A stretch of DNA of 64,000 nt from Escherichia phage vB_EcoS_HASG4. A model generated the notes under the pieces. The model was not told the origin of the DNA and made no database searches. It worked only from the letters and a program-made list of their open reading frames with translations. The DNA lies in sequence record NC_100331.1. One strand, 5' to 3'. Each line of letters begins with the position of its first letter. Positions within the stretch are counted from its first letter, which is position 1. Below are positions 29,502-63,189 of the stretch, piece after piece. Position numbers and translations under genes: made by a program.

Positions 29502-29507
29502 TACTCT

Positions 29508-29583: not shown

Positions 29584-29601
29584 TACACTCCAAAAATGCT
29601 A

Positions 29602-30028: not shown

Positions 30029-30053
30029 ATTTTATTTCCTATTTAAGTTAATT

Positions 30054-30130
30054 TGGGGTGGCTAGTGGAATTCGAATCCACATAGGCCTGATTCACAATC
30101 AGGATCATTAACCAATTATGATATAGCCAC
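30054..30130 (-). tRNA. tRNA-His (GTG)
   Basis: anticodon arm CCTGA-TTGTGAA-TCAGG; T-arm GTGGATTCGAATTCCAC. Confidence 0.8.
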
Positions 30131-30360
30131 AATTGAAAACTCGCAGGGTTAGCGAAACCATCCTCAATTAGCATGTTCTAGAATACTAATCAAGTTATCT
30201 CCTATTGCACGCAGCTCAAGACGAGTACGAATTTTCAATTATGGCGGCTCTCAGAAACTCTTCTATTCTAGCCTCAGAAGCTTACCCCCGAACGCATGTC
30301 GGGAAAGTCTTTCCAAGCGCATCAAATAGCACCGTTACACTTTGAGCCATTGATGTATCA

Positions 30361-30460
30361 AGGAATAGAAGGACTTGAACCTTCATGAGTTAGACCATTT
30401 AACTCAACCGCTTTTAAGGTATATTTCTAGGAGTGGATGTTCCTAGTAAACCTATTCGGC
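30361..30460 (-). ncRNA. tRNA-like element with Leu-type T-arm (atypical; boundaries uncertain)
   Basis: GAAGGTTCAAGTCCTTC T-arm and two 6-bp hairpins; could not be folded into a canonical cloverleaf. Confidence 0.3.
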
Positions 30461-30691
30461 AGTCCCGTCTACCAATTCCGGCATATTCCAAGAATTTTTA
30501 TAAACCAGCAGAAGCCTCATTTAAAGCATCAACAATAGCTTCACGCTGGGTCATTCCATACCCGGTGGAATCTAGGTGTGGCAAATAAGCCATCCATCCC
30601 TTATCTGTTTCATGAAGACATGCTTTAAATTTCTTACCATCCTTCATTGTTACAGTAACTGTTTCGCTCATAAGATTTCCTTATAGTTAAT

Positions 30692-30781
30692 TGGCAGAAG
30701 ATAATGGAGTCGAACCATCACCGTATCGCTACAGCGGGCTGGTTTTCAAGACCAGTTACGTACCACTACGTCCTATCTTCT
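30692..30781 (-). tRNA. tRNA-Ser (TGA)
   Basis: 90 nt type II; acceptor AGAAGAT/ATCTTCT; anticodon arm CTGGT-CTTGAAA-ACCAG. Confidence 0.8.
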
Positions 30782-30794
30782 AGTATTTATTATA

Positions 30795-31142
30795 CTAATA
30801 GTCACTTGTACTAGTGAAGTTTTCTACTTTTCCACAGATTTTACAAGTCCTACGATGATAGTAGGTAATTTTTACTTTAGACCAGCCATCGTGATCATTA
30901 CCTAGATTTTCTGTTACTCCCCAAGTATGAGAACACTCATTTTCAATTTGCTTAGTAAGAGCGTTATAGCGAGTATAAAACTCCTCCTGAGCAATAGCAA
31001 ATTCTTTCTGTAGTTTATCACGAGCAATAATAGCACGTTCCAGATATGTTAAATCAGGCATTCCAGCTTTTTCAGCAGCATCTATAATCTTATCTTCATC
31101 TAAAGATGCTAAAAACTCTAGAGCTTTATCTTTTGCTAGCAT
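30795..31142 (-). CDS. hypothetical protein with C-terminal zinc-ribbon-like CxxC pair
   Basis: 115 aa. Confidence 0.5.
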   Translation of the reverse strand: MLAKDKALEFLASLDEDKIIDAAEKAGMPDLTYLERAIIARDKLQKEFAIAQEEFYTRYNALTKQIENECSHTWGVTENLGNDHDGWSKVKITYYHRRTCKICGKVENFTSTSDY

Positions 31143-31161
31143 TATTATTACCTCAAGTGTT

Positions 31162-31252
31162 TGGCGGAAGAGGAGAGATTTGAACTCTCAAGCCGTTTTA
31201 CCAGTCAGCCACTTTCCAAGCGGTTTTCGTCGCCAATTCGATTTGCTCTTCC
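31162..31252 (-). tRNA. tRNA-Ser (GGA)
   Basis: 91 nt type II; starts GGAAGAG; loop TTGGAAA; T-arm GAGAGTTCAAATCTCTC. Confidence 0.75.
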
Positions 31253-31364
31253 AATAATAAGATGATGCCTCTATCACACCAGGCAGTTACGCCTCGCTGG
31301 GATTCGAACCCATTAAAACAGCTCAACCGAGATAGTAGGTTTAATTTACTCTGACCATCAAATT

Positions 31365-31441
31365 TGGTGCGTGACAAGGGATTCGAACCCTCAAAACCCG
31401 ACTTCTAAGGACGGTATGTATGCCAATTCCATCAATCACGC
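31365..31441 (-). tRNA. tRNA, anticodon loop CTTAGAA (reads TAG; Leu-decoding?)
   Basis: 77 nt; acceptor GCGTGAT/GTCACGC; T-arm GAGGGTTCGAATCCCTT; short variable loop. Confidence 0.55.
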
Positions 31442-31446
31442 GTATT

Positions 31447-31525
31447 TGGTGGAGAATAACGGAATCGAACCGTTCTGATGTCCTCGGTGCAAGCGAGGTG
31501 TCCACTCCATGCAGACCCATTCCCC
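31447..31525 (-). tRNA. tRNA-Ala (TGC)
   Basis: acceptor GGGGAAT with G3-U70 wobble; anticodon arm CCTCG-CTTGCAC-CGAGG. Confidence 0.8.
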
Positions 31526-31748
31526 AAATTCTTTAGTTTACTAAGGCTATTAGCTCGGCGTAACTACAGCACCTTCGCTTCGGGCGGAAGGAACTGCGTC
31601 ATCTCGCAAACCCAATACACTATTCAGTTGCCGCTGAATCTAGTGGACCAATCTAGAACTTCTCCCGAATCATGGGGATCGTGCTTTTTGGCAGCCAGTC
31701 CTAGGTCGAGCTAATACCTTAGTGAACTATGATGAGGATCTCTCCTCA
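31526..31748 (-). ncRNA. candidate non-coding RNA region downstream of a promoter cassette
   Basis: 223 nt without ORF; cassette at ~31749-31780 points into it; hairpin ccttcgcttcgggcggaagg. Confidence 0.3.
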
Positions 31749-31784
31749 TCAATTTATATAAATATTATAACAAGAAATTAAGCA

Positions 31785-32153
31785 TTAAGCAAGTACATTT
31801 TTAGCGATTTCTTGTAGTTCCTTTACATCACGAACGTAAAGGTAATCAGAGCTTCCAGAGTGCATACTTTGCATAACCACACCTTCATCTGGTGCATTAT
31901 CCTTCAAAGTAATTCCTAACCAGAACTCGGCAAAACTAGGTGTTACCTCACCTTGACTTGCCTTGAATACATCATATTCTGTAAGTTCTTGACCAGTAGA
32001 TAATCCCAAATAGACAGAACTAAGATCAATCTCTTTATGAGACTCATAAAATTCCGATAGATCTTTTTCCATATCCCAGCCATGCTGTAACGCGAACTCC
32101 ATTGTCACATGACCGAAATAACCTTGAATCTTGCTTGATAATTGCATTTGCAA
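31785..32153 (-). CDS. hypothetical protein
   Basis: 122 aa; RBS AAGGAA. Confidence 0.5.
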   Translation of the reverse strand: MQMQLSSKIQGYFGHVTMEFALQHGWDMEKDLSEFYESHKEIDLSSVYLGLSTGQELTEYDVFKASQGEVTPSFAEFWLGITLKDNAPDEGVVMQSMHSGSSDYLYVRDVKELQEIAKNVLA

Positions 32154-32172
32154 TTCCTTATTTTGAGTTAAT

Positions 32173-32246
32173 TGGTACTCGGTGATAGAATCGAACTATC
32201 GCAACCGCCGTGTAAAGACGGGGTTCTCCCATTAAACTAACCGAGC
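32173..32246 (-). tRNA. tRNA-Val (TAC)
   Basis: anticodon arm CCGTC-TTTACAC-GGCGG; T-arm GATAGTTCGATTCTATC. Confidence 0.75.
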
Positions 32247-32250
32247 AATT

Positions 32251-32329
32251 TGGTAGATCGCCTGGGACTCGAACCCAGAACCTTCCGATTAAAAGTCGGA
32301 TGCTACTGAACCTATTGAGCTAGCGATCT
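32251..32329 (-). tRNA. tRNA-Lys (TTT)
   Basis: anticodon arm TCCGA-CTTTTAA-TCGGA; T-arm CTGGGTTCGAGTCCCAG. Confidence 0.8.
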
Positions 32330-32518
32330 ATTAGTAACCATTGTATACTTCTTTAATAGAGTGAACTTTCAAGTAGGGGTGATTAGTATTAAACTCTACC
32401 ATTACTTCATCCCAATTTTTACCATAATGAGCGAGTAAGGATTTTGATGTATTCTTACCTAAACGTTTGTCACTTACTACTAATCGAAATACTTTCATTT
32501 CGAAATCCTCTATTAAAA

Positions 32519-32596
32519 TGGGAGCGGGTGCAGGAATCGAACCTACCTCTTTCTAGCTTATGAGACTAGCGATCTCTACCAGAGATCTAACCCGCA
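32519..32596 (-). tRNA. tRNA with CAT anticodon (Met-type)
   Basis: loop CTCATAA; 1-72 mismatch; T-arm GTAGGTTCGATTCCTGC. Confidence 0.7.
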
Positions 32597-32602
32597 ATTG
32601 TT

Positions 32603-32680
32603 TGGTCTCCGTGGGAGGATTTGAACCCCCGACCCTATCGCCCCAAACGAAACGCTCTGGCCAAACTGAGCTACACGGAG
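32603..32680 (-). tRNA. tRNA-Pro (TGG)
   Basis: D-stem GCTC/GAGC; loop TTTGGGG; T-arm GGGGGTTCAAATCCTCC. Confidence 0.75.
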
Positions 32681-32684
32681 AATA

Positions 32685-32843
32685 TTATTTCTTCAACCAC
32701 AACAAAGATAAGCCCAGCATACTAAAGCCGCTAACTAATCCGATACATTTTTCTTCTGTAGTAAAAGTATCTAGATTAAATGCTGTTATAGCTATTGGCA
32801 TACACCATAATGCCATAAAAACTTGAGCTATCTTGTGTTTCAT
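32685..32843 (-). CDS. small membrane peptide
   Basis: 52 aa ORF below track cutoff; promoter cassette and RBS directly upstream. Confidence 0.35.
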   Translation of the reverse strand: MKHKIAQVFMALWCMPIAITAFNLDTFTTEEKCIGLVSGFSMLGLSLLWLKK

Positions 32844-33054
32844 TTTGCTTTCCTTCTCTTCACTTTATAAAATATATTATACAGAGAATTAAGCATAATA
32901 GCAAATGAATTTTTAATAAATTTACTTATTGTGTAGGCCACCTGGAGGCTACCAACCCCACGGCTGACAAAGAAGTTTGCGAGACCCCTCTTAAATGCCA
33001 GAATAGACCCGCCGATCTATCGGAACCTACATAATAAGTAAACTTTATAGTGTC

Positions 33055-33174
33055 ATTCTAGACAGGACTCGAACCTGTTATCACTTGTGCGGACTTACGA
33101 GAACCATTCTTTCACTCGAATCGAACGAGCTTCTGCCCTCGCCAAGCTGGTTTCCCCATCAACCACGCTAGAAT
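33055..33174 (-). ncRNA. tRNA-like RNA of atypical length (~120 nt)
   Basis: perfect 7-bp acceptor-like pairing ATTCTAG/CTAGAAT; T-arm ACAGGTTCGAGTCCTGT; second T-like hairpin; too long for a tRNA. Confidence 0.35.
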
Positions 33175-33296
33175 GTTTGATTGTTTTCAGTGCAAGAGTC
33201 CGAGTCTTGGACACGACCGCTTCGCAAATACATAGGCAGCTTATCATGAGTCAGCACTTCCGAATTGCTAGCTCCGTGTTCTGCACTGAAATTTTA

Positions 33297-33644
33297 TTAG
33301 TTTAACCGTAAAGTATTATCTACTTCACCATTAATTGTTCGGCATTCCTCAGGGATTGCTGGTGTAGTCTTATACTCCCACCATTCAGAACCATCATATT
33401 CACCACGTTCTAACCAAGTTCCGTCAGTAAACCATACGTTACCATAAAGCAATTGTCCACCGAAACCAGAATCATATTTAAAGTCTAGATTATTTAGAAA
33501 ATCTTCAATATCTTTTTCTGTATAACCTACGGGTAATACCCAAACTTCTTTGTCCCCATAATAACCGAATTCTATCTTAATACACTTAACTTCAGACTTA
33601 GTATTCTTTAGGGCAAGTAACAACTCTTCTTTAGCATTAATCAT
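33297..33644 (-). CDS. hypothetical protein
   Basis: 115 aa. Confidence 0.5.
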   Translation of the reverse strand: MINAKEELLLALKNTKSEVKCIKIEFGYYGDKEVWVLPVGYTEKDIEDFLNNLDFKYDSGFGGQLLYGNVWFTDGTWLERGEYDGSEWWEYKTTPAIPEECRTINGEVDNTLRLN

Positions 33645-33670
33645 AGCATATTTCTCGTACTAGTTTAGTT

Positions 33671-33746
33671 TGGTACACCCACTAGGACTTGAACCTAGAA
33701 CCCTCCGCTTAAGAGGCGGTAGCTCTAACCATTGAGCTATGGATGT
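33671..33746 (-). tRNA. tRNA-Lys (CTT) candidate
   Basis: acceptor ACATCCA/TGGGTGT; D-stem GCTC/GAGC; loop CTCTTAA; T-arm CTAGGTTCAAGTCCTAG. Confidence 0.6.
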
Positions 33747-33929
33747 ATATTTGAAGAATCTCTCGTAAGAATTTCTTCAAATACCCTCTCCTGTGAAAAA
33801 GGGGGGTTTGCTTAATTATTGTGGCTAGGGCGCGGTAAAGTAGCTTTCTAGTCGGAAGCCCCAGAGCATATCCGTCTAAAGACCATATGTGACCTCCCCT
33901 ATCTTTACCTACTCTGTACCATAATTGTT

Positions 33930-34006
33930 TGGCGCGACCGATGGGATTTGAACCCACATTCCCTCCCGTGACAGGGGAGTACCATTACCAAGCCAGCCCC
34001 GGTCGC
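33930..34006 (-). tRNA. tRNA-Asp (GTC)
   Basis: anticodon arm CTCCC-CTGTCAC-GGGAG; T-arm TGGGTTCAAATCCCA. Confidence 0.8.
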
Positions 34007-34015
34007 ATAATTCAT

Positions 34016-34201
34016 TTACTCAGCTTTGAGTTTTTCAATAGCTGCATTAAGTTCTTTAAGAAACTCTTTTCGTACATTAAGACGATTAAGACTTACTAGT
34101 ATATCCTGTTTAAGTTCTTCGATGTATTTCTTCTCAACTTCAATATTGTTGATAGTGCTATCACGATGAACTTCTAACTGTGCAATTACATTCTTGGACA
34201 T
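34016..34201 (-). CDS. small coiled-coil protein
   Basis: 61 aa. Confidence 0.4.
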   Translation of the reverse strand: MSKNVIAQLEVHRDSTINNIEVEKKYIEELKQDILVSLNRLNVRKEFLKELNAAIEKLKAE

Positions 34202-34303
34202 GACTGTTTCCTCAGTTATTAATGAAAATGGTATCTGTGGCTGAATTCGATATCAGCAATGATAGCTGGTTGGCTACCGGTTTACTTAACTCTACACAGA
34301 ATT

Positions 34304-34386
34304 TGGCGGGCCGTGTAGGATTCGAACCTACGTTGTCTTTCGACATGGATTAACAGTCCACCGCCAAACCGCTTGGCTAACGACCC
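34304..34386 (-). tRNA. tRNA-Asn (GTT) candidate with extended variable arm
   Basis: 83 nt; anticodon arm GTGGA-CTGTTAA-TCCAT; ~13-nt variable hairpin GTC-GAAA-GAC. Confidence 0.65.
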
Positions 34387-34396
34387 TAAATTTATA

Positions 34397-34536
34397 TTGC
34401 TGACTAGGATTTTCACCTAGACGGAGTTAGCACCGTAGCGTGTAGCGGCATACCTCTCCAAACCGTGCCTCATCTTTCAATTACGGAGACAGTGTTCCTA
34501 CGCGTGCCTGAATTGATTTAACAATTCTTTCAGCAA
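34397..34536 (-). ncRNA. tRNA-like RNA of atypical length (~140 nt)
   Basis: 7-bp acceptor-like pairing TTGCTGA/TCAGCAA; T-arm-like hairpin CTAGG-TGAAAAT-CCTAG next to the 3' strand. Confidence 0.3.
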
Positions 34537-34538
34537 AT

Positions 34539-34614
34539 TGGACGACCGCATGAGATTTGAACTCACATAAAAAGGATTTGCAATCCTTCGCCTAAGCCAT
34601 TCAGCCAACGGTCG
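34539..34614 (-). tRNA. tRNA-Cys (GCA)
   Basis: anticodon arm AAGGA-TTGCAAA-TCCTT; discriminator U; T-arm GTGAGTTCAAATCTCAT. Confidence 0.8.
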
Positions 34615-34686
34615 ATTTATCTTGTTCTGTCATGTTGCTTCTCCAGTTCAATTTATGTAATTATTATTATACAGAACTTTTGGAAA

Positions 34687-34974
34687 CTAAGCAACTACAT
34701 TTTTTAAGAATTTGATGCCTTTCTTTTTCTTCTTATATTTCCACGTTAAGGGATTCTGTCGATTATGAACGCTTGAGATCTTCGTCTCGTCAAAGTTCTT
34801 CAATATCATGTAATCACAAGATAATTGTTCTAATGGAATGTGATCACCGTCAAAAGCATATACATAAGGCTGTTGACTAGCACGATAATGATAGACTTTG
34901 TTAATTCTACGTTTCAGCGACTTATCAGCGCAGTAAATAAAGAAGTTTTCAGGATGCATCAGCAGCTCCTTCAA
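34687..34974 (-). CDS. hypothetical protein
   Basis: 95 aa. Confidence 0.5.
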   Translation of the reverse strand: MKELLMHPENFFIYCADKSLKRRINKVYHYRASQQPYVYAFDGDHIPLEQLSCDYMILKNFDETKISSVHNRQNPLTWKYKKKKKGIKFLKNVVA

Positions 34975-34976
34975 TT

Positions 34977-35051
34977 TGGTGCACCCTGTTCGTATCGAAC
35001 GAACCTCTCAAGCTCTTCAGGCAAGCGCTAATCCATCTCAGCTAAAGGTGC
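34977..35051 (-). tRNA. tRNA-Phe (GAA) candidate
   Basis: loop CTGAAGA; T-arm GTTCGTTCGATACGAAC; anticodon stem imperfect. Confidence 0.65.
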
Positions 35052-35057
35052 AAATTT

Positions 35058-35128
35058 TGGCAGGGGTAAAGGTATTCGAAACCTTTTCATGGGTTTTGGA
35101 GGCCCATTTGCAACCTATGCGTACCCCA
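35058..35128 (-). tRNA. tRNA-Trp (CCA), short D-arm
   Basis: 71 nt; loop CTCCAAA and 3' end CCCCTGCCA resemble bacterial tRNA-Trp. Confidence 0.65.
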
Positions 35129-35137
35129 ATTGTTAAT

Positions 35138-35212
35138 TGGCACACCCACGGAGAATTGAACTCCGATTCTCAGATTGAAATCCTGATGTCCTGGCCATTA
35201 GACGATAGGTGC
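35138..35212 (-). tRNA. tRNA-Glu (TTC)
   Basis: D-arm GTCTAATGGCCAGGAC resembles bacterial tRNA-Glu; anticodon arm TCAGG-ATTTCAA-TCTGA. Confidence 0.75.
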
Positions 35213-35220
35213 ATTAAATT

Positions 35221-35308
35221 TGGTGGGCGTTAATGGAGTCGAACCACTCGAGTCGCAATGACCAGGGATTTACAATCCCCTCCGCTACCACTTACGGAAT
35301 AAACGCCC
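35221..35308 (-). tRNA. tRNA-Tyr (GTA)
   Basis: 88 nt type II; anticodon arm GGGGA-TTGTAAA-TCCCT. Confidence 0.8.
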
Positions 35309-35436
35309 ATATTTAGAAGCATTCAAATACTTGTTTAAACACTTTTAAATATGTTTCCAAATTAGATAACTATTATACCAAGTTTTAAGGCACTGAGCAA
35401 GTCAAATTTTGAAGAACTTGCTCAGTGCTGTATTAG

Positions 35437-35712
35437 TTAGTCGAACTTAGGAGTGACAGCTAAGGAGAACGGAAGTTCAAAAACTTCTTCCCCCTCATTA
35501 CTAACGGTAACTACACGACCTTTAAGTTCAGACATTAAAATATCAATATCAGCTTTTGCATCTGGAGCCATGCCAGCTTCAATACATTTAGCTTTAACTT
35601 CTGGTAAAAGCTCTACGTTATAGAGATAGAGCCACTCAATCTCACCTTCCCAGTCTTCCCAGGATTTGCAGATTGCACTTTCAATACCAGTTGCTACAAC
35701 ACGATTTTGCAT
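35437..35712 (-). CDS. hypothetical acidic protein
   Basis: 91 aa; promoter cassette upstream. Confidence 0.5.
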   Translation of the reverse strand: MQNRVVATGIESAICKSWEDWEGEIEWLYLYNVELLPEVKAKCIEAGMAPDAKADIDILMSELKGRVVTVSNEGEEVFELPFSLAVTPKFD

Positions 35713-35802
35713 TAATTAACTCCTTCATCAATTTATACAACTATTATATCAGAAATTTAAAGCAAAAGGCAAGTACATTTTTAAAAATTCTATTCGGAGG
35801 AG

Positions 35803-36009
35803 CTAAACTCCAGATTCTTCAGCTAAGTCTAGGCTAATAAGAGTTATAGCCATAATTGCTGCACCGTGTTCTTTTTCTCCGGTGTTTTTAGCAGAGTCTA
35901 TAATAGTCTTAATCTGTTCGTAATAGCCTTTTACTTCTTGTTCAATACCTGCCTCGGCTATCATGCCTTTAGTCATGATTCGTTGCATAGTAATTTCACG
36001 GTTAGCCAT
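35803..36009 (-). CDS. small hypothetical protein
   Basis: 68 aa. Confidence 0.4.
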   Translation of the reverse strand: MANREITMQRIMTKGMIAEAGIEQEVKGYYEQIKTIIDSAKNTGEKEHGAAIMAITLISLDLAEESGV

Positions 36010-36198
36010 GTTGTTTCTCCAGCTTCATTTTTAATAGTTTACAAATGAAATCAACGTCTTCATCTGTACCTAGATCTCTATCTTCAAGGGTTGCCTTGAA
36101 ATTTTTCGTTAGTTCCATAAGAATAACTTCCCTAGAACGACGTGTTGGCGGAGGTGGATGTCTATACATCTTAATTCCTTAATTTGGTAGGGATTATA

Positions 36199-36882
36199 TC
36201 ATCTACTTTTCTTAATACTTTTAGGATCTTTCCCTGTTAGGGACTTATACCTTTTCCTTAATCCAGTATCAGACAATCCTAGTTCTTTGGAGGCACGAAT
36301 CCAGGAATATTTAGATACCCAGTACTCTATTTGCTCCACAGTAATATCTGGATTTATAGTTATCTCTTTAGGAGTACATGATTTACAGTGTGTTGCTCTT
36401 GAACTAATTTCGCAGTGACAAATAGCACACGTATTTACAGTTCTTTCTGTATACCTGCCAATATTTTTGCCTGCATGAGTAGGTGTTAGTGCATGGCAAT
36501 TTGGACATAGGAGGGCTAAGTTATCCCATTCATTATTATAGTGATTTCCATCCTTGTGTTCGAGTTCTAAAGGAATTGGTTTGTCTAACCAACTTTCTAA
36601 GCCACAACTCTCACACTTATGTGGTTTTAGCCCCTCGTTAAGAATTTTATTCTTTAGTTTATAGGAAGAAATAGGGCTGCCGTTATATAAATACTCTGTT
36701 GCAGACTTATATTTATTATCATACTGCCTATTCGCAGGAATAACTACTATTCCTAGTTTTCCTAAATATGCTTCCAAAGTGTTCGAGGAGCAGGATAGCA
36801 TTCTTGCTATCTCTGCTTTAGATTTTCCCTGAGCTATCCACTGAGCTATTTCTTCCTTTCTATCTAGTATATCAGTTCTCAT
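36199..36882 (-). CDS. HNH homing endonuclease with N-terminal HTH
   Basis: 227 aa; CESCG...HKDGNHYNNEWDNLALLCPNCH zinc/HNH motif. Confidence 0.7.
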   Translation of the reverse strand: MRTDILDRKEEIAQWIAQGKSKAEIARMLSCSSNTLEAYLGKLGIVVIPANRQYDNKYKSATEYLYNGSPISSYKLKNKILNEGLKPHKCESCGLESWLDKPIPLELEHKDGNHYNNEWDNLALLCPNCHALTPTHAGKNIGRYTERTVNTCAICHCEISSRATHCKSCTPKEITINPDITVEQIEYWVSKYSWIRASKELGLSDTGLRKRYKSLTGKDPKSIKKSR

Positions 36883-36905
36883 AGTTTATGACTTTATAAT
36901 TAAGT

Positions 36906-36983
36906 TGGTGGCTCCCCGAGGATTCGAACCTACGTACCTTCCGGTTATGAGCCGGGTGCTCATACCATATGAGCTTGAGAACC
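36906..36983 (-). tRNA. tRNA with CAT anticodon (third copy)
   Basis: acceptor GGTTCTC/GGGAGCC; anticodon arm CCGG-CTCATAA-CCGG. Confidence 0.7.
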
Positions 36984-36989
36984 AAAATC

Positions 36990-37079
36990 TGGCGGAAGAA
37001 GTGGGAATCGAACCCACAAGGCTATATTTCAAACCGACAGATTAGCAATCTGCTGCAATACCGTTATGCTATTCTTCCG
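36990..37079 (-). tRNA. tRNA-Ser (GCT)
   Basis: 90 nt type II; starts GGAAGAA; anticodon arm GCAGA-TTGCTAA-TCTGT; promoter cassette abuts 5' end. Confidence 0.8.
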
Positions 37080-37099
37080 AATTTATAAGATATATTATA

Positions 37100-37618
37100 T
37101 TAGAAATTTAGCTTCATAGCAAGAAAATTTTTCAAGTTTTCGGTAGACATCTCATCCACATCTACGGGAGAAACAAATCCATTTAATTGTCTAGCAAACT
37201 TTTCACCAGCAGGATCATTGTCCCCAACAGCTACCAATTTAAAAGGTAGTAATTTCAGTTGCTTTAATAACGCTTTTCCTGGAGAAGAACCCAACATTGC
37301 CAGGGCTGGATAACCAGCATTATGTAACGCAACTGCCTTAAATACAGATTCAGCAATCAATACTACTTTTTCATCTCCATTGAGAGTTTCTAGTCCCCAT
37401 ACACACTGGGTAGTAGAATAAGTAAAATATTTAGCTTCAAAGGGGCACTTACCATGACCTTTTGGAGCAGAAGGATTATAAGTTTGATAGCCCCTCAACA
37501 TCCCAGAGAAGTCATACAACGGGACTGTTAGCCATCCTTCCGGACTTAACCAGCAATGATATTTATCTGTATCAAATCCTCTAGATAAGAGGTGCTGTGT
37601 TAGCTCATCAACATTCAT
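37100..37618 (-). CDS. TOPRIM-like domain protein
   Basis: ORF 37100-37669 trimmed (track start read through promoter cassette); IAESVF...GDNDPAGEKFA resembles TOPRIM. Confidence 0.5.
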   Translation of the reverse strand: MNVDELTQHLLSRGFDTDKYHCWLSPEGWLTVPLYDFSGMLRGYQTYNPSAPKGHGKCPFEAKYFTYSTTQCVWGLETLNGDEKVVLIAESVFKAVALHNAGYPALAMLGSSPGKALLKQLKLLPFKLVAVGDNDPAGEKFARQLNGFVSPVDVDEMSTENLKNFLAMKLNF

Positions 37619-37633
37619 ATTTGGTTCCTCTCT

Positions 37634-37658
37634 CAAATTTATAGATATATTATACAGA
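37634..37658 (-). promoter_or_regulatory. conserved early promoter-leader cassette (example)
   Basis: plus-strand caaatttatagatatattatacaga. Confidence 0.6.
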
Positions 37659-37793
37659 GAATTTAGCATTCAAGCAATCAAATTTTTTAACTTTTTAGAG
37701 GAAAATCATAGGGCACTTAAGGGTAGCAGATAAGTGGTGAGGACCAAAATTTGTGACCCAACTAAAAATCCGGGGGCAATTTTTAAAGACCCC

Positions 37794-37822
37794 TTGACAT
37801 TTTCGCGGGGGTAGTGTAAAGT
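37794..37822 (+). promoter_or_regulatory. host sigma70-type promoter (TTGACA-17-TAAAGT)
   Basis: ttgaca at 37794-37799, 17-bp spacer, taaagt at 37817-37822; differs from the phage cassette used by neighbours. Confidence 0.65.
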
Positions 37823-37884
37823 ATATGTTATGGATGAGTGATCAAAGAGACACACATTTTCTATATACTAGGAGGTGTCAAAAA

Positions 37885-57105: not shown

Positions 57106-57295
57106 TGGCTTAAATGCTGCACTGGAAAATGCATTGATGCAGCAGTGGGAGGCTGGATATAAGGATGGGGTTGAATCTTGTGCAAAAATAATGGATATTA
57201 TGGCTAATTCTGTAGTTGGGAAAGCCCATCCAGAAGTATCTGATATACTCCATAACCTTAGTAAAAACTTCAGAGAACAGGTGAAAAATGCGTAG
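57074..57295 (+). CDS. hypothetical protein
   Basis: 73 aa. Confidence 0.45.
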   Translation: MAFSKPMLPDNGLNAALENALMQQWEAGYKDGVESCAKIMDIMANSVVGKAHPEVSDILHNLSKNFREQVKNA

Positions 57296-58109
57296 ATTAA
57301 TTATTATTAGCGGTGCAGGTTTGAGTGTTGAAAGTGGTGTACGAGCCTTCCGTACTGATACTGCTAGTGGTAAAGCATTGTGGGATGATTATGACTTAGA
57401 AGAGGTATGTAATATTCATGCCTTTCGTGGTAATTTTTATCATAAAACTCATATGTTTTACAACAAGCGTCGTGAAGAGCTAAAAACTGTTGAACCCAAT
57501 CTTGCACACTTGCGTATTGGTGAATGGTATAAGAAATATCCAGGTCAAGTAGTAAACTTGACTACCAACGTTGATGACCTTATTGAGCGTGCTGGAGTAC
57601 CAAAAGAAGACATACTCCATATTCATGGGTACCTGAAAGAAATTATCGTAGAGCACGCATTCGACCAGACACATGATATTATTGATATTGGATATAGTTC
57701 TATTGACCCCGATGACTTTGACTGGGTTAAACCTAATGTAATTTTCTTTGGGGAACATGCTCCAGCGTACAAAACAATGTATGAGATTTTTGATGGCATT
57801 ACCAGTCAAGATATGATCATTGTGGTTGGTTGCTCTAACCAAGTAATTAACTTCTACTGGGAATTATTTCCTGTTCTTAATCTGACTGCTGCAAAACTTA
57901 TGGTAGTTAACTACTATGATAGTGCCCTAGCAGCGGAACCAGGCTATCAAGGTATGACTCGTAGTGAGATGTACCAGTTGGAAGAACGTGGGATCCCTTA
58001 CTGGAGTAAAGGTGCGGTGGATGCTTTTAGTGACCCGGGTTTTATTGCTCGTGTAGAAGCTCATCTAGAGGGTAGACCTTATATGCCGGGGAAACAAATA
58101 TGTCCATAA
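57288..58109 (+). CDS. Sir2-like (sirtuin family) protein
   Basis: 273 aa; N-terminal GAGLSVESGVRAFR matches Sir2 NAD-binding motif. Confidence 0.7.
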   Translation: MRRLIIISGAGLSVESGVRAFRTDTASGKALWDDYDLEEVCNIHAFRGNFYHKTHMFYNKRREELKTVEPNLAHLRIGEWYKKYPGQVVNLTTNVDDLIERAGVPKEDILHIHGYLKEIIVEHAFDQTHDIIDIGYSSIDPDDFDWVKPNVIFFGEHAPAYKTMYEIFDGITSQDMIIVVGCSNQVINFYWELFPVLNLTAAKLMVVNYYDSALAAEPGYQGMTRSEMYQLEERGIPYWSKGAVDAFSDPGFIARVEAHLEGRPYMPGKQICP

Positions 58110-58777: not shown

Positions 58778-59206
58778 ATGTTCAATAATGTATTCTCTAA
58801 AGAAGCTAACCCAATTTTGGTTAACTTTTGGCGTACTCTCCCGGCTAGCCTGTATAATGAGGCTATTAACTCCTTGAAAATATGGTGTGAGAATAACGAA
58901 ATCTCCTTTGCTTTTAAAGATGATATTGATGAGGCTCCCTGTATTGGTTTAATTGTTCAGGTAGAGGAGGGTCTTGAAGAAATTGTCGGCTGGAAAGAGT
59001 TAGATGAAATGGGCTTAGTTTTTGCGTTAAACTATAAGCTGTTTATGCCTGCTAAGCATCGCCTCGTTGTTAACTATAAAACTAGTGAATCTCCTGGTTT
59101 TCAGGTTAATGAACGTTACGGTTGGTCTTACTCACCGGAAGAAGTGAATGAGGGGATTCAGAAACTTCGACGTTTCGGGTATATGATCCCAGGTTTAACT
59201 GCTTAA
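58778..59206 (+). CDS. hypothetical protein (paralog family member 1)
   Basis: 142 aa; shares ELDW/EMGL..ALN..LF.P pattern with next ORF. Confidence 0.55.
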   Translation: MFNNVFSKEANPILVNFWRTLPASLYNEAINSLKIWCENNEISFAFKDDIDEAPCIGLIVQVEEGLEEIVGWKELDEMGLVFALNYKLFMPAKHRLVVNYKTSESPGFQVNERYGWSYSPEEVNEGIQKLRRFGYMIPGLTA

Positions 59207-59215
59207 GGAGGCAGA

Positions 59216-59608
59216 ATGGAACAAGTATATTGGCGTCAGATTGACCCTAGTTTGGTGAAACGTGCGGAGAAGCTGCTACAACGTTGGTTGGGGGTAAGAC
59301 AAGCCTCCTTCACTTTTCCGGAGCAGCAAATAGACGATCCTTGTGTTGGTGTTTTCCTATCAGGCTACGCTAGGGAATGGGAATTGGATTGGAATGAATT
59401 GTCTGCTATGGGTTTAATTGTTGCACTAAATTTCTCTTTGTTCCATCCCCGTGGTTTGGCCATATGTCGTGTGCCTGATGACGGTTGTTCGCCCCATCTT
59501 TTACAGATGGAAGATGATATTTGGGAGTACACTCCAGATATTCTCAAAGAAGCTAAAGAACAATTAAATCGTGTTGGAATCTATGTTCTGGGGCTAAATG
59601 ATGAATAA
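59216..59608 (+). CDS. hypothetical protein (paralog family member 2)
   Basis: 130 aa; RBS AAGGAGG. Confidence 0.55.
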   Translation: MEQVYWRQIDPSLVKRAEKLLQRWLGVRQASFTFPEQQIDDPCVGVFLSGYAREWELDWNELSAMGLIVALNFSLFHPRGLAICRVPDDGCSPHLLQMEDDIWEYTPDILKEAKEQLNRVGIYVLGLNDE

Positions 59609-59795
59609 GGGATTTTGGAAAATAAAAGGTAAAATTTCTAAGTGGAATACTACAGGGAAAATTAGTAAGTCTCTAGAGATAGAGATAGCTAGAATGTTTA
59701 CTGATCCTGATTTTGATATAGGAAAACTAAGTAAAATAGATGCTAAAAAAGTAGATAAGTATATAGAAGAGATTAGAAGTATTTTAAGTGTCTAA
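59598..59795 (+). CDS. small hypothetical protein
   Basis: 65 aa. Confidence 0.4.
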   Translation: MMNKGFWKIKGKISKWNTTGKISKSLEIEIARMFTDPDFDIGKLSKIDAKKVDKYIEEIRSILSV

Positions 59796-59804
59796 TACAC
59801 ATAA

Positions 59805-59828
59805 CCGAGTCATTTTGGCTCGGTTTTA
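59805..59828 (+). terminator. rho-independent terminator
   Basis: ccgagtcattttggctcgg followed by tttt. Confidence 0.7.
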
Positions 59829-59871
59829 TCCGTACTCAAGACCAATGATAGCATTCTCTTTAAAAATTTAC

Positions 59872-59900
59872 TTGCACGATGCTCAAAATCTTGATATAAT
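59872..59900 (+). promoter_or_regulatory. sigma70-type promoter (TTGCAC-17-TATAAT)
   Basis: ttgcac 59872-59877, tataat 59895-59900. Confidence 0.6.
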
Positions 59901-60399
59901 AGTTATATTGAATTGAGAGACATTAGTAAAAATTGATTTTGCTAATTTTTCTTGTTTACAATCCGCGATACGGAACAGTTAGGCTGCCCCATTAAGGGTT
60001 GTTTTAACTGTTACGTGTTAGTTTTTAAACAAATAATTAATAGAATACTTAGCGATCTACACCCCGTAGGAACCCTGGTAAGGCCTCGAAGCAACCTAGT
60101 GTGAGGTGGTTGTGAAGTGAGACGGGAAGAGTGAAAAACTCTGAGAAGTGATGACGTAAGGTATACTGCATCTAGTATGAGCTAGTACATGAAGCATTAG
60201 GTGAGCAAATCTGGCTTAGCGGCCATCCTCAAGGATTTGTGCGGTATAGTGAAGCGGCAGTGTAGCGTGAAAGTGGAAGTTGCCACCCCACTTCAGTATT
60301 TGCAATTAATTTGTTGAGAAATTGACAGTAACAGTTGTTCTATTCTTTCTGAATAGTCCTAAAGAAAACTTATTTCATTTCCAACACAGGAGTATTGTT

Positions 60400-63189
60400 G
60401 TGTTTTCAATCCTACAAGGTCATGCAGGATTTCATCGCGATTTAGCCACAGGCAATTGGCGAGAAGTTAAAGCAGAAGACTATCTTTTTGCTAAAAGATT
60501 TTCCTCAAAGCATCCTGAAGGTAAACCAGCTTCAATGCCCTTCAAGTTTGATGTAATTGACGAAATTGATCCTCAAACCCTAGTAGAAATGCTTCCTCTT
60601 ATGAGACGTTTAACGTCTGACCCTCATATCGTTGCGGTACGAGGTCGATGTCTTGCACCTAAAAATAATGTGCGACGTAAGAAGGGCAACTTTAATGTAT
60701 CTAATCCAAGTCATATAATCGCAATGGATGTGGATGGTATTGTAGATACAGGAGGTTGTAACAAGTTTGATCTTGTTGGTATGGCTCGACATATTATTAG
60801 GATGTTAAATAGTATTAGTGAGGATATGTTTCCTCTTGATGCAGGGTTTATTGCTCATGCATCATCTTCGGCTGGCCTAAAACCAGGTATCCGAATGCAC
60901 TTAATACTAGAATCTAATGTTAAAGTTACACAGGGTCAGATCAAGTTCTTATTTACATCTATCAACGAAAGTAGTAGACAAAAGTATGGCTTTGATATTG
61001 CCGACTTAGCTTATTACTCCTCCGTACAGCTTCATTACTTTGCAGATCCTTTATTTATTGATGGTATAGTCGATCCGTTTAAAGCGGAGGGTGCTTCACG
61101 TCTGGTATTTGTTAAGGGTTCGAAGGTAAATTTGCCTAATAATCTAGTTGACTATGAAACAACTAGAGGTGAGTTTAAGGAGGAGTTCTATTCTTTACTC
61201 GACCAAATTAAAGGTAAAAAAGCTGCCTCTGATAAAGTAGAGGAAACTATCAGCGAACTAGAAGAAGCTGAGGATGGAGTGTATCTACGTATTATTCCAA
61301 AGCTATATCACCGAGCGCTAGAGGATGGAGTAGATTTTGGTTGGCTAGAAAAAGAAATCCGCCCAGCTTTATCAGAATATATTGCAACTAAAGATAATAG
61401 CCGTAATATTCAGGATTATTTCAATAACGGACGGAAGCAGGCATTAAAAGCCTTTGTGAATAACTCTAAGCGTGAGATCCCTGAAGTATTAAAAGGTATC
61501 CCCCTTAAAAAGCTAGAAACTAATTCACTAGAGACCGACAACTTCTTGAAATTAAATACTGTACCACCAGAAGGTTATATGACTTTTGTAAAAGCAAGTC
61601 TAGGTACAGGTAAAACTACGGCGGTTGTGCGTTGGTTAGATTCAGGAGTTATTAAGGGTAATTTCTTAGCAATTACCAATACTCGAGCACTGGTATCTTC
61701 AAATGCTAAGAAATTTAGTGCAGGACAATATGATAAGTCTGTAGATATGCTTAATTTTAAGCGTGGTGCTATTGACCGTATGTCCACAACTATTCACTCT
61801 TTGCATAAGTTCAAGAGTTTTATTGGTCAAATTGATGCAATCTTTATCGATGAATGTGATGCAGTAATGAATGACCTATTATTCGCCCCAGTTGTTAAGC
61901 AACGTCGTGAGTGTATTCAGGTTCTTCGTGATATTCTTGCAACTGCAAAAATCATTATACTATCAGATGGTGATATTAGTGCTGAAACAATTGAAGCATA
62001 TGGTTCTTTAATTGAGTTCGATAAACCAGTAGCATTTTACAATCATCACCGTAAAATGCTGTCAAAAGCTCATGCTTATGAGTTCCCTGATGAGTCCAGT
62101 ATTTGGGTTGCACTTCAGACTTCTCTAGAGATGGGTGAGAAATCTATTCTAGTATCTGATTGTGGCCCTGATGAGCTTAATGAGAAGGGTATGGCACTAC
62201 GTCGTAATACGGGTGCATTAGTTAAGGAAATCCATTCAAACTCTACCTCAGATGTGGATATTCGACGTATTCTGGATTACACAACTAATGAGTTAATTGA
62301 TCAACAAATTGATTGCTTATTATGTAGTCCATCCGTAACGAGTGGAGTTGACTTCAACTATTTTGATAACGTATTTGTTATTACTAGAACCAGTAATCAA
62401 GCGCCAAACATGCGTTTCCAAGCAATCAGGCGCGACCGTGGTGCTCAGAATATCTATTATTTTATTGATAAATCCACTAGTGGATTCTCCGCAGGTTCTG
62501 AACAGTATAACATTGATGAGGGTTGGCTGGAGTTAGCACAGCAATTATACGCACGTCGCAGGGAGCTGGAATCTAGGAACTATACTAGTACTTTACGTTA
62601 TTACTTGCTTGATCAGGGTGCAACTATTGATATTTTCAGCGAAAGCTGGGGAACTATTGAAGGTGCTGGTAAAGAGTACACAGAAGAGCGAATTAAAGCT
62701 ATTCTACATTCAACTCCGGATTATTGTGCTCCACGTCATGCGGATGCGTATGAAGCTAAGCTACTTCTTGTTCGCTATTATCATCTTGAGTCTATTAAAG
62801 ATGTAACAGTTGAGCATGTTGAACAATATATCAAGGATAAACCGAATGATCGAGCAGCATTCTTCCATAAAATGCACGCGATGTTCTGGGAAGATATTAA
62901 GAAGTGTTCAAATGTCACTATCAAACCTTTCATAGAAGCTCTGAAAGGTAAGAAGAAAGATTTCTTCCTTAAAACAGGTCAGAGTGCTAACCCAAAATAT
63001 GCGAGAATGTATCTTGGTATGATGGGTATTGGTAAGGATATGAACACTGAAAATATTGTAGACTGGTACAGAACCTATTGTAAAATCGAGTGTATGCCAA
63101 TTCCTTATAAGTTCATGACTGACGAGGAAAAACATATGCATGATGAAGCAATGTCAGAGCTAGGTGCTAGAAATGACAGTGAAGAATAA
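60400..63189 (+). CDS. SF2-type helicase-like protein (replication-origin-binding-like)
   Basis: start set at GTG 60400 after AGGAG (track uses TTG 60322); Walker A GTGKTT, Walker B IFIDECD; ~929 aa. Confidence 0.75.
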   Translation: MFSILQGHAGFHRDLATGNWREVKAEDYLFAKRFSSKHPEGKPASMPFKFDVIDEIDPQTLVEMLPLMRRLTSDPHIVAVRGRCLAPKNNVRRKKGNFNVSNPSHIIAMDVDGIVDTGGCNKFDLVGMARHIIRMLNSISEDMFPLDAGFIAHASSSAGLKPGIRMHLILESNVKVTQGQIKFLFTSINESSRQKYGFDIADLAYYSSVQLHYFADPLFIDGIVDPFKAEGASRLVFVKGSKVNLPNNLVDYETTRGEFKEEFYSLLDQIKGKKAASDKVEETISELEEAEDGVYLRIIPKLYHRALEDGVDFGWLEKEIRPALSEYIATKDNSRNIQDYFNNGRKQALKAFVNNSKREIPEVLKGIPLKKLETNSLETDNFLKLNTVPPEGYMTFVKASLGTGKTTAVVRWLDSGVIKGNFLAITNTRALVSSNAKKFSAGQYDKSVDMLNFKRGAIDRMSTTIHSLHKFKSFIGQIDAIFIDECDAVMNDLLFAPVVKQRRECIQVLRDILATAKIIILSDGDISAETIEAYGSLIEFDKPVAFYNHHRKMLSKAHAYEFPDESSIWVALQTSLEMGEKSILVSDCGPDELNEKGMALRRNTGALVKEIHSNSTSDVDIRRILDYTTNELIDQQIDCLLCSPSVTSGVDFNYFDNVFVITRTSNQAPNMRFQAIRRDRGAQNIYYFIDKSTSGFSAGSEQYNIDEGWLELAQQLYARRRELESRNYTSTLRYYLLDQGATIDIFSESWGTIEGAGKEYTEERIKAILHSTPDYCAPRHADAYEAKLLLVRYYHLESIKDVTVEHVEQYIKDKPNDRAAFFHKMHAMFWEDIKKCSNVTIKPFIEALKGKKKDFFLKTGQSANPKYARMYLGMMGIGKDMNTENIVDWYRTYCKIECMPIPYKFMTDEEKHMHDEAMSELGARNDSEE

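What the first reader, a model, noticed from the sequence alone, without database searches (positions are those of the whole stretch)
59900..60400. Purine-rich ~0.5-kb leader upstream of the helicase-like gene, which appears to start at GTG
After a consensus-like promoter (59872-59900), ~500 nt of G/A-rich sequence precede the helicase gene, whose best RBS-supported start is GTG at 60400. A long structured 5'-UTR with a non-ATG start suggests post-transcriptional control of a replication protein, or an embedded small RNA.
Basis: seen in the sequence. Interest (0 to 1): 0.4.

Follow-up and report, generated by a model that had tools for sequence, protein, structure and literature searches.

The report
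Large structured RNA before T5 helicase
The 0.5-kb gap in front of the replication helicase gene (D2) of this T5-like phage is not empty spacer: it is a transcribed leader that folds into a large RNA structure conserved across T5-like phages, matches no catalogued RNA family, and has an unknown role.

Summary
The window is Escherichia phage vB_EcoS_EASG3, a T5-like phage. The promoter (59872-59900), the ~490-nt untranslated leader and the GTG start of the helicase gene D2 (60400) are all real. "Purine-rich" holds only for the central 250 nt.

The leader is a conserved structured RNA. It has a 5' hairpin (59915-59953), a sequence-invariant hairpin (59958-60002), a 331-nt multi-helix domain (60006-60336) closed by a ~30-bp stem, a 3' hairpin (60340-60356), and a small hairpin holding the start codon.

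- Domain length (319-331 nt) and distance to the start codon (55-63 nt) are kept in seven lineages.
- About 50 base pairs show changes on both sides, far above the shuffled and slid controls.
- G-U pairs place the structure on the D2 strand.
- T5 itself carries a second version whose core is only 28-52% identical in sequence. A covariance model never trained on it still finds it.
- Rfam 15, E. coli genomes and the searchable literature hold nothing like it, and no ORF in it is conserved.

Function is inferred, not shown. A cis-acting regulatory or processing leader for D2 is most likely. A released trans-acting RNA is the main rival, and a replication-primer RNA a weaker one.

The parts
59803..59825 (+). 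Intrinsic terminator hairpin of the upstream small gene (AACCGAGUCA/UGGCUCGGUU followed by U's). It marks the 5' boundary of the unit.
   Evidence: Inverted repeat I9. Annotated as a terminator in MK373799.
59872..59900 (+). Early sigma-70-type promoter: -35 TTGCAC, 17-nt spacer, extended -10 TGaTATAAT, A-rich upstream tract. Predicted transcription start near 59907.
   Evidence: Sequence. Annotated as a putative promoter in T5. Conserved in other lineages. Not called by the consensus scan.
59915..59953 (+). H0, a long hairpin at the 5' end of the transcript (GAGAGA-AUUAGUAAAA / UUUUGCUAAU-UUUUCU). In T5-like phages it ends in a U-run and was annotated as a terminator in Stitch and Shivani.
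   Evidence: Folds. The stem sequence differs but still pairs in L065, L067 and L068. Terminator annotations.
59958..60002 (+). P0, a hairpin that is invariant in T5-like phages. Its tip is CAGU-UAG-GCUG, inside the motif AUACGGAACAGUUAGGCUGCCCCAU.
   Evidence: Invariant in 27 sequences. The motif is kept in L065, L067 and L068. L081 has CGGU/GCCG at the tip, an A-U to G-C compensatory change. This stretch is 98-100% identical between phages whose neighbouring genes are 80-98% identical.
60006..60336 (+). Main structured domain, 331 nt. Closing stem P1 pairs 60006-60038 with 60304-60336 (31 pairs in the minimum-energy fold). Inside are helices P2-P10 and P8.
   Evidence: The minimum-energy fold of seven lineages, each folded alone, gives an 18-37-bp closing stem and a 319-331-nt domain. 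Pair counts on the plain MAFFT alignment A4: 85.7% paired against 76.0% in shuffles, and 51 pairs changed on both sides against 31.4.
60049..60296 (+). Core of the domain, modelled as covariance model R1 (248 positions, 65 pairs): P2, P3, P3a, P4, P5, P10, P9, P6, P7 and P8.
   Evidence: R1 scores 287 bits here and nowhere else in the window. It finds untrained Klebsiella-type loci (E about 4e-12) and T5-type loci (E 2e-4 to 5e-3). 49 of 65 pairs change on both sides.
60215..60222 (+). Invariant CUUAGCGG at the tip of helix P7, the most conserved motif of the family.
   Evidence: Invariant in alignments A2, A4 and A9. Present in the same hairpin-in-helix setting in the Providencia and Proteus phages.
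60271..60293 (+). P8 hairpin (AAGUGG / CCACUU) with the conserved loop AAGUUGCCACC.
   Evidence: U-A to G-C compensatory change within type A. Motif G(U/A)(U/G)(G/A)CCA(C/U)CCC in types A, L065, L067 and L068.
60340..60356 (+). P11, the 3' hairpin (CUAUUC-UUUCU-GAAUAG) between the domain and the ribosome-binding site.
   Evidence: Alifold. The stem is CUUUCC/GGAAAG in L067, CUAUC/GAUAG in L065 and ACUAU/AUAGU in L081.
60383..60404 (+). Translation-initiation hairpin AACACAG / UUGUGUU. The Shine-Dalgarno AGGAG (60388-60392) lies partly in the loop and the GTG start (60400-60402) in the stem.
   Evidence: Alifold pairs 482-488/497-503, with three sequences changing C-G to U-G. AACA...UGUU around the start recurs in L065, L068 and L081.
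60400..63189 (+). D2 gene, the T5 'bipolar helicase', also annotated 'replication origin binding protein'. This is the gene the leader precedes.
   Evidence: ORF list. Annotations. Pfam Herpes_ori_bp at residues 394-533. PHROG 3712. Wong et al. 2013, PMC3632103.

Best explanation
Shown: the spacer is the transcribed 5' leader of the D2 helicase mRNA. It is a member of a previously undescribed family of large structured RNAs found in T5-like phages (Demerecviridae). The order of elements is promoter, 5' hairpin H0, invariant hairpin P0, a ~330-nt domain closed by a ~30-bp stem (P1) with at least ten covarying helices and an invariant CUUAGCGG loop, 3' hairpin P11, and a small hairpin that contains the GTG start.

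Inferred: the RNA acts in cis on D2 expression. Its fold would set how much D2 mRNA is made, how it is processed and how well it is translated. The long P1 duplex is a plausible RNase III-type processing site. Cleavage there would cut the folded domain away from a short D2 mRNA that begins near P11. The start-codon hairpin and the weak GTG codon would keep translation of the replication helicase low. Whether the core senses a ligand or a protein is unknown.
For: Structure
- Alignment-independent folds in seven lineages give the same architecture and size.
- On the MAFFT alignment A4, 85.7% of cells pair against 76.0% in shuffles (0 of 500 shuffles reach it). 51 of 96 pairs change on both sides against 31.4. 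Slid controls give 35-47%.
- On the model-fitted alignment A8, 91.9% pair against 74.4%, and 49 of 65 pairs change on both sides.
- There are 452 G-U cells against 59 A-C cells, so the fold belongs to the D2 strand.
- Model R1 recovers untrained Klebsiella-type and T5-type loci at the expected place.

Action in cis
- The RNA is on the D2 strand and directly upstream of D2 in every T5-like, Klebsiella-type, L067, My1 and L081 phage examined.
- The distance from the domain end to the start codon stays at 55-63 nt.
- No terminator-like site lies between the domain and D2.
- A hairpin covers the start codon.
- A promoter is kept directly before H0 even where upstream genes differ.
Against: - No ligand, protein partner or expression platform (terminator/antiterminator pair, clear anti-Shine-Dalgarno) could be identified.
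- At 330 nt with more than ten helices, the domain is larger than almost all known cis-regulators.
- In Proteus phages a consensus promoter (TTGACA-18-TATAAT) lies between the RNA-like region and D2.
- In Vibrio D51 and D145 and Aeromonas TS3, hairpins followed by U-runs (read as terminators from the fold, not run through the terminator scan) lie between the long upstream non-coding region and D2. Homology of those regions to this RNA is unproven. If they are homologous, they suggest the RNA can be an independent unit.
- The core differs strongly between alleles (28-52% identity) while its flanks are invariant. This is not the usual pattern for a simple regulator.
Confidence: 0.45

Rival explanations
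1. The folded domain is the functional product. It would be co-transcribed with D2, excised at the long P1 duplex and accumulate as a stable ~300-nt RNA. That RNA would then act in trans, for example as the RNA part of a phage ribonucleoprotein, or as a decoy or sponge for a host factor or defence system. D2 would simply share its promoter.
For: - P1 is an 18-37-bp duplex in all lineages, the kind of substrate RNase III cuts.
- The promoter is strong and of the early type.
- The core comes in two very divergent alleles between invariant flanks. Cassette-like turnover of this sort is typical of loci in conflict with the host.
- In Proteus phages a promoter separates the RNA-like region from D2.
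- In some Vibrio and Aeromonas relatives, hairpin-plus-U-run terminators, read by eye from the fold, do the same.
- Size and complexity resemble large ornate non-coding RNAs more than riboswitches.
Against: - The spacing to the D2 start codon is tightly conserved, and T5-like, Klebsiella-type, L067, My1 and L081 phages have no terminator after the domain.
- No second copy and no uncoupled copy were found: none elsewhere in the window, none in E. coli genomes, and none in the unrelated loci scanned.
- Homology of the Vibrio and Aeromonas upstream regions is not shown.
Confidence: 0.3
2. The transcript is a replication-initiation RNA. The strong promoter would drive a G-rich, folded transcript that forms a persistent RNA-DNA hybrid next to the gene of the origin-binding helicase. 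This would prime or open a replication origin, as in ColE1 RNA II, the T7 primary origin or the T4 oriF and oriG origins.
For: - It lies directly upstream of the gene annotated as origin-binding protein.
- It sits at ~50% of the 120.7-kb genome, and the D2 homologue lies near the middle of most complete phage records listed.
- The core is G-rich on the non-template strand, with GC skew 0.25-0.34.
- The flanks are AT-rich.
- The 5' 150 nt are ultra-conserved, which could reflect a constraint at the DNA level.
Against: - Compensatory changes and the G-U bias show selection on the RNA fold itself. R-loop priming alone does not need that.
- No iterons or repeated binding sites are present.
- No antisense promoter was found inside the leader.
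- Recombitron editing of T5 showed a strand bias that its authors read as dominant unidirectional replication from one genome end (PMC10055335). A central origin does not predict that.
Confidence: 0.1
3. The region has no RNA-level function. It would be mosaic spacer, contain small protein-coding genes as annotated in some records, or act only as a DNA element such as a cruciform or protein-binding site.
For: - Several GenBank records annotate 38-50-aa ORFs here.
- The region is a recombination hot-spot: an HNH gene is inserted upstream in some phages and a ~97-nt insertion lies inside the leader in others.
Against: - No ORF is conserved in position, frame or sequence. Stitch-type phages have none of 25 aa or more.
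- Length and helices are conserved with changes on both sides of pairs.
- The strand asymmetry of G-U against A-C pairs excludes a double-stranded DNA cruciform as the selected form.
Confidence: 0.03

Closest known systems
Riboswitch, T-box and ribosomal-protein-leader type cis-regulatory 5' leaders
   Same: It lies in the 5' UTR, on the same strand and at a fixed distance from the regulated start codon. Helices covary and a few loop and junction nucleotides are invariant. The start codon lies in a hairpin.
   Different: - It matches no Rfam family, even at E up to 10.
- The domain is 330 nt with at least ten helices, larger than almost all aptamers.
- No terminator/antiterminator pair or clear anti-Shine-Dalgarno platform was found.
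- No ligand is known.
Large ornate non-coding RNAs of phages and bacteria with unknown function (GOLLD, ROOL, raiA, OLE)
   Same: It is large (over 300 nt), multi-helix, strongly covarying and phage-encoded. Primary sequence is poorly conserved apart from a few motifs, and the function is unknown.
   Different: - It does not match their Rfam models.
- It is embedded in an mRNA leader rather than standing alone.
- It is not next to tRNA genes; the tRNA cluster is about 19 kb away.
- It is known so far only from Demerecviridae.
ColE1 RNA II and the T7 and T4 transcript-primed origins
   Same: A strong promoter drives a ~500-nt folded, G-rich transcript in a replication locus.
   Different: No antisense RNA I-like promoter, no known hybrid-forming site, and no evidence for an origin here. 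The published strand-bias data for T5 point to replication from one genome end.
RNase III-processed phage leaders (T7 early mRNA sites, lambda N leader)
   Same: A long near-perfect RNA duplex (P1, about 30 bp) lies in a phage early transcript just upstream of a gene.
   Different: Here the duplex encloses a 260-nt conserved, structured core instead of being a simple hairpin. Cleavage has not been tested.
HK022 put and EAR-type cis-acting antitermination RNAs
   Same: A promoter-proximal folded RNA at the head of a long phage early transcription unit. In T5-like phages a terminator-like hairpin (H0) is nearby.
   Different: The put and EAR RNAs are 70-120 nt. H0 lies upstream of the large domain, not downstream. 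There is no sequence or model similarity.

Membership tests
Any Rfam 15 family (4227 models) | Covariance-model score at or near the family's gathering threshold | tested here: not met
   In window 59000-61000 and 59900-60410 the only hits are archaeal C/D-box sRNA models at 10-17 bits, against gathering scores of 36-54. Nothing falls in the leader of T5, L060, L062, L065, L067, L068, L081 or the Vibrio and Aeromonas loci. The only hits in those loci are three sub-threshold matches outside the structured domain, including 28.7 bits against a gathering score of 100 at L068 875-975.
Riboswitch-type cis-regulator | Conserved folded aptamer-like domain in the 5' UTR of the regulated gene | tested here: met
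   The domain is conserved and covarying, and sits 55-63 nt upstream of the D2 start in seven lineages.
Riboswitch-type cis-regulator | Expression platform: mutually exclusive terminator/antiterminator helices or Shine-Dalgarno sequestering helices | tested here: inconclusive
   No terminator follows the domain. A hairpin covers the start codon, but it is invariant in T5-like phages, so there is no covariation to judge it by. AACUGUU (60006-60012) can pair either with AACAGUU in P0 (inverted repeat I5) or with the 3' strand of P1; covariation supports only the P1 pairing.
Riboswitch-type cis-regulator | Specific ligand binding that changes the fold | not testable with these tools
   Needs in-line probing or ITC.
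RNase III processing site | RNA duplex of about 20 bp or more | tested here: met
   The P1 outer stem has 18-37 pairs in the minimum-energy fold of each of seven lineages. Its pairs vary and stay paired (helix 1).
RNase III processing site | Cleavage in vivo that depends on rnc | not testable with these tools
   Needs Northern blots or RACE in rnc+ and rnc- hosts.
ColE1 RNA II-like primer RNA | Antisense regulator RNA transcribed from the opposite strand of the leader | tested here: not met
   The consensus scan finds no minus-strand promoter-like site inside 59900-60400.
ColE1 RNA II-like primer RNA | Persistent RNA-DNA hybrid and replication initiation at the 3' end of the transcript | not testable with these tools
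Replication origin (DNA element) | Iterons or repeated initiator-binding sites next to an AT-rich unwinding element | tested here: not met
   Only short two-copy repeats (9-11 nt) occur in 59700-60500.
Intrinsic terminator or attenuator (hairpin H0) | Stable stem directly followed by a U-tract | tested here: inconclusive
   In T5-like phages H0 is followed by UUUUUCUUGUUU and was annotated as a terminator in Stitch and Shivani. In Shivani a copy of H0 sits where the upstream gene's terminator normally is. The stem is AU-rich and the scan did not call it. The Klebsiella-type H0 has no U-tract.
C/D-box (kink-turn) RNA | Conserved C box RUGAUGA and D box CUGA | tested here: not met
   GUGAUGA is present in the window, but other type A phages have GUGAUUC at that position. 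Rfam scores are far below threshold.

The most novel reading that the evidence does not exclude
The D2 leader domain is a new class of large functional RNA in a classic model phage. It could be a ribozyme, a sensor, or an RNA subunit that works with the D2 helicase. It would couple transcription of the locus to replication start or to evasion of host defence, and its two sequence-divergent but structure-preserving alleles would reflect an arms race.
Probability: 0.2. Interest if true: 0.85.

Novelty: new variant of a known kind. Interest (0 to 1): 0.62.

Why it matters
T5 has been studied for seventy years, yet how it starts DNA replication and how it controls its helicase D2 are still unclear. 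An unannotated 330-nt RNA fold directly in front of D2, with recognisable modules in several genera of the family, is a concrete new handle on that problem.

It also adds a new family to the short list of large structured phage RNAs. Genome annotators currently fill the region with spurious 30-50-aa ORFs; one is even labelled 'replication origin-binding protein'. A covariance model would correct hundreds of phage records, many from phages used in therapy and biocontrol. The two alleles, with the same fold but unalignable core sequence, offer a natural experiment for RNA structure-function work.

Tried and rejected
- Rfam at permissive thresholds on the window and ten related loci gave nothing relevant.
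- tRNA and tmRNA scan: none near the region.
- Small ORFs in the leader were rejected because none is conserved.
- No iterons or origin-type repeats were found.
- blastn against E. coli genomes found no host counterpart.
- Model R1 found no second copy in the window.
- A degenerate P0 motif scanned over bacterial genomes returned only chance matches. None carries the RNA core.
- Extending the family by model or profile to more distant relatives gave no significant hits. R1 with filters off and nhmmer were run on the Providencia, Proteus, Vibrio, Aeromonas and L083 loci. For Providencia and Proteus only a hand comparison supports homology: the P7 module lies inside an 82-92-nt branch closed by a P9-like helix.
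- CsrB-like sponge idea: rejected from reading the sequence. I counted about 4-5 GGA motifs in the core by eye, against roughly 8 expected from base composition; no tool count was run.
- Technical dead ends:
  - mafft-qinsi is not usable in the sandbox.
  - A filters-off search of 92 kb failed.
  - Padding a hand alignment with N to force it through MAFFT failed.
- Six literature searches found no description of this RNA and no mapped T5 origin at this locus. Bourguignon et al. 1976 is not in the held library.
Full report
**Identity of the window.** The region is 100% identical to Escherichia phage vB_EcoS_EASG3 (MK373799, Tequintavirus; window coordinate = record coordinate + 39). The gene downstream of the finding is D2. 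It is the T5 'bipolar helicase' studied by Wong et al. 2013 (PMC3632103) and is usually annotated 'replication origin binding protein'. Pfam finds Herpes_ori_bp at residues 394-533, and the protein belongs to PHROG 3712.

**Check of the observation.**
- Promoter. TTGCAC, a 17-nt spacer and TGaTATAAT lie at 59872-59900. T5 record AY692264 annotates the same site as a putative promoter. A promoter directly before the transcript's first hairpin is kept in other lineages, and also where an HNH endonuclease gene has replaced the upstream context. The simple scan missed it because the -35 hexamer matches only 3 of 6 bases.
- Start codon. GTG at 60400 has AGGAG 7 nt upstream. Four independent records annotate it as the start. 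The start position is conserved: the N-terminus MF(S/T)IL is kept, while the codon is GTG in T5-like phages and Providencia phage PR1, ATG in the Klebsiella-type, L067, My1 and Proteus phages, and TTG in L081.
- Leader. It is about 492 nt long, has no conserved ORF and has no terminator-like site before D2.
- Purine content. The whole leader is 53.5% purine, and 11% of 500-nt windows are as high. The 248-nt core is 58.5% purine, in the top 2% of 250-nt windows.

**What is there.** Twenty-seven distinct T5-like leaders were aligned. Their length is almost constant at 504-508 nt. The first ~150 nt and the last ~40 nt before the ribosome-binding region are invariant. The central ~300 nt exist in two versions:
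- type A, the window's version;
- type B, found in T5 itself and in Stitch.

The two versions are 28-52% identical in the core, while the neighbouring genes are 80-98% identical. Both share islands such as GAUCU and GGCUUAGCGGCC at the same positions.

More distant relatives were reached through D2 homologues. They are the Klebsiella-type loci L065, L066, L080 and L082, locus L067, Pectobacterium phage My1 (L068) and a metagenomic contig (L081). All show the same layout: promoter, 5' hairpin, the motif AUACGGAACAGUU(A/C)GGCUGCCCCAU, a domain of 319-331 nt closed by a long stem, a 3' hairpin, and the start codon 55-63 nt after the domain.

**Evidence for RNA structure.**
1. Each lineage folded alone gives an 18-37-bp closing stem P1. 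Its sequence differs between lineages but stays complementary:
   - AACUGUUAC/GUAACAGUU (type A)
   - AACUAUUAC/GUAAUAGUU (type B)
   - GAUUAUUAUACA/UGUAUAAUAAUU (L067)
   - GGUUAUUAUAUA/UAUAUAAUAACC (My1)
   - GCUGCUACU/AGUAGUGGC (L081)
2. Comparison by hand defined helices P2-P10 and P8. One example is P9:
   - UAUACUGC/GCGGUAUA (type A)
   - UAUAUUC/GAGUAUA (L067)
   - CCUCAAU/AUUGAGG (My1)
   - GUACAG/CUGUAU (T5)
   - GUCCAG/CUGGAU (Stitch)
3. Pair counts on the plain MAFFT alignment A4 (33 sequences, 96 pairs) were compared with shuffled and slid controls.

| Measure on A4 | Observed | Control |
|---|---|---|
| Cells paired | 85.7% | 76.0 ± 0.3% in shuffles (0 of 500 reach the observed value) |
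| Pairs changed on both sides | 51 | 31.4 ± 2.5 in shuffles |
| Cells paired, partner slid by 1-3 columns | - | 35-47% |
| Pairs changed on both sides, slid | - | 17-27 |

4. Covariance model R1 has 248 positions and 65 pairs. It was built only from type A, L067, L068 and L081.
   - It finds the untrained Klebsiella-type loci at E about 4e-12.
   - It finds all eight untrained type B loci, T5 included, at E 2e-4 to 5e-3. These hits are full length and at the expected position.
   - On the resulting alignment A8, 91.9% of cells pair against 74.4% in shuffles, and 49 of 65 pairs change on both sides. This alignment is fitted to the model, so it leans towards the structure.
5. There are 452 G-U cells against 59 A-C cells. 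Read as the opposite strand, pairing drops from 85.7% to 72.5%. The selected molecule is therefore the plus-strand RNA, which is the D2 strand.
6. The window leader has a minimum free energy z-score of -2.84.

**Range of the family.** Rfam 15 has no match, even at E up to 10. E. coli genomes hold nothing similar, and the window has no second copy. Eighty bacterial loci picked up by a degenerate motif were chance matches and lack the core.

In Providencia phage PR1 and Proteus phage Stubb the P7 module is recognisable by eye. It consists of a helix, the CUUAGCGG hairpin and a ~8-nt 3' internal loop. It sits inside an 82-92-nt branch closed by a P9-like helix: AAACUUC/GAAGUUU in PR1 and GUAACU/GGUUAU in Stubb. 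R1 does not reach significance on these loci.

Vibrio and Aeromonas Demerecviridae also have 700-1600 nt without credible genes upstream of their D2 homologue, but homology is not shown. The annotators of Stubb had themselves noted an 'empty low gene density area' there.

**How it may work.** Only the structure and its linkage to D2 are shown; everything else is inference.

I favour a cis-acting leader (confidence about 0.45). The reasons are the fixed spacing to the start codon, the shared strand, the absence of a terminator, the hairpin that holds the GTG start (60383-60404), and a promoter kept directly in front of the element. The ~30-bp P1 duplex is a plausible RNase III site. Cleavage there would separate the core from a short D2 mRNA headed by hairpin P11.

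The main rival (about 0.3) is that the excised core is itself the product and acts in trans. Three things speak for it: the size of the domain, the cassette-like allelic divergence between invariant flanks, and a promoter (Proteus) or hairpins with U-runs that look like terminators (some Vibrio and Aeromonas relatives, read by eye from the fold) between the upstream region and D2. The two models do not exclude each other.

A primer or R-loop RNA for a central origin (about 0.1) is suggested by the position next to the 'origin-binding' gene at 50% of the genome. Against it:
- selection acts on the RNA fold;
- there are no iterons;
- there is no antisense promoter;
- recombitron data indicate dominant unidirectional T5 replication from one end (PMC10055335).

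**Unexplained.** The first ~150 nt of the unit (promoter, H0 and P0) are 98-100% identical across phages whose coding neighbours differ by up to 20%. An RNA fold alone does not explain such invariance. It suggests a second constraint, such as a protein-binding site or a DNA-level role.

**Verdict.** The RNA is a new family with unknown function in a classic model phage.

Noticed in passing
L059:957-1045 and L042:958-1046 (between H0 and P0, equivalent to window ~59953): Some type A phages carry a ~97-nt insertion inside the leader, flanked by the direct repeat TTTTTCTT and containing its own hairpin (ATTTACGG...CCGTAAAT). It explains the ~97-nt-longer two-piece hits. It may be a miniature mobile element, and the leader evidently tolerates it.
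   Followed up: partly
L005 (Shivani) 1002-1454 and L044:~516-966, upstream of the leader promoter: An HNH homing endonuclease gene is inserted just upstream of the D2 leader in several T5-like phages. In Shivani a second copy of hairpin H0 sits where the upstream gene's terminator normally lies, which suggests H0 can act as a terminator.
   Followed up: partly
L002 (GEC_vB_N5) 3189-3718, equivalent to window 59788-60317: This GenBank record annotates three ORFs of 38-50 aa inside the leader and labels one 'putative replication origin-binding protein'. None is conserved, so these are very likely mis-annotations of the structured RNA.
   Followed up: yes
L073 (Aeromonas phage TS3) 18-1609; L069 and L070 (Vibrio VPG01, Skimmer) ~1004-1717; L071 and L072 (Vibrio D51, D145): Distant Demerecviridae have 700-1600 nt without credible genes upstream of the D2 homologue. 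The regions are GC-richer and fold strongly. In D51, D145 and TS3 they end in hairpins with U-runs that look like intrinsic terminators, 75-130 nt before D2. They may hold an analogous or very diverged RNA.
   Followed up: partly
L071 (Vibrio phage D51) 1801-1936: The tblastn match to the D2 N-terminus starts 135 nt upstream of the annotated CDS start, so the D51 gene start is probably annotated too far downstream.
   Followed up: no
window 60111-60120, 60142-60151, 60270-60279 and 60288-60294: Three copies of GAAGUG-like sequence could each pair with CCACUUC, the 3' strand of P8 (repeat D2 and inverted repeat I2). Covariation supports only the local P8 hairpin, but alternative pairings, and so a conformational switch, are possible.
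   Followed up: partly
window 60105-60109 (GGUGG, P4 loop and 3' strand) and 60283-60287 (CCACC, P8 loop): The P4 loop and the P8 loop are complementary in type A (GGUGG/CCACC), and differently so in type B (GUUA/UAAC). This hints at a loop-loop tertiary contact. It was not tested statistically.
   Followed up: no
window 27832-41271, minus strand: A cluster of 23 tRNA genes lies here. One tRNA-Ser (41198-41271) is called with the unusual anticodon ACT.
   Followed up: no
window 57288-58109: A Sir2-family (NAD-dependent deacetylase-like) gene lies 2 kb upstream in the same early transcription block.
   Followed up: no
window 60118-60182: Weak matches to archaeal C/D-box sRNA models come from GUGAUGA and CUGA motifs (17 bits against a gathering score of 36). 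The C-box-like motif is not conserved among type A phages, so this is probably chance, though a kink-turn is not excluded.
   Followed up: partly
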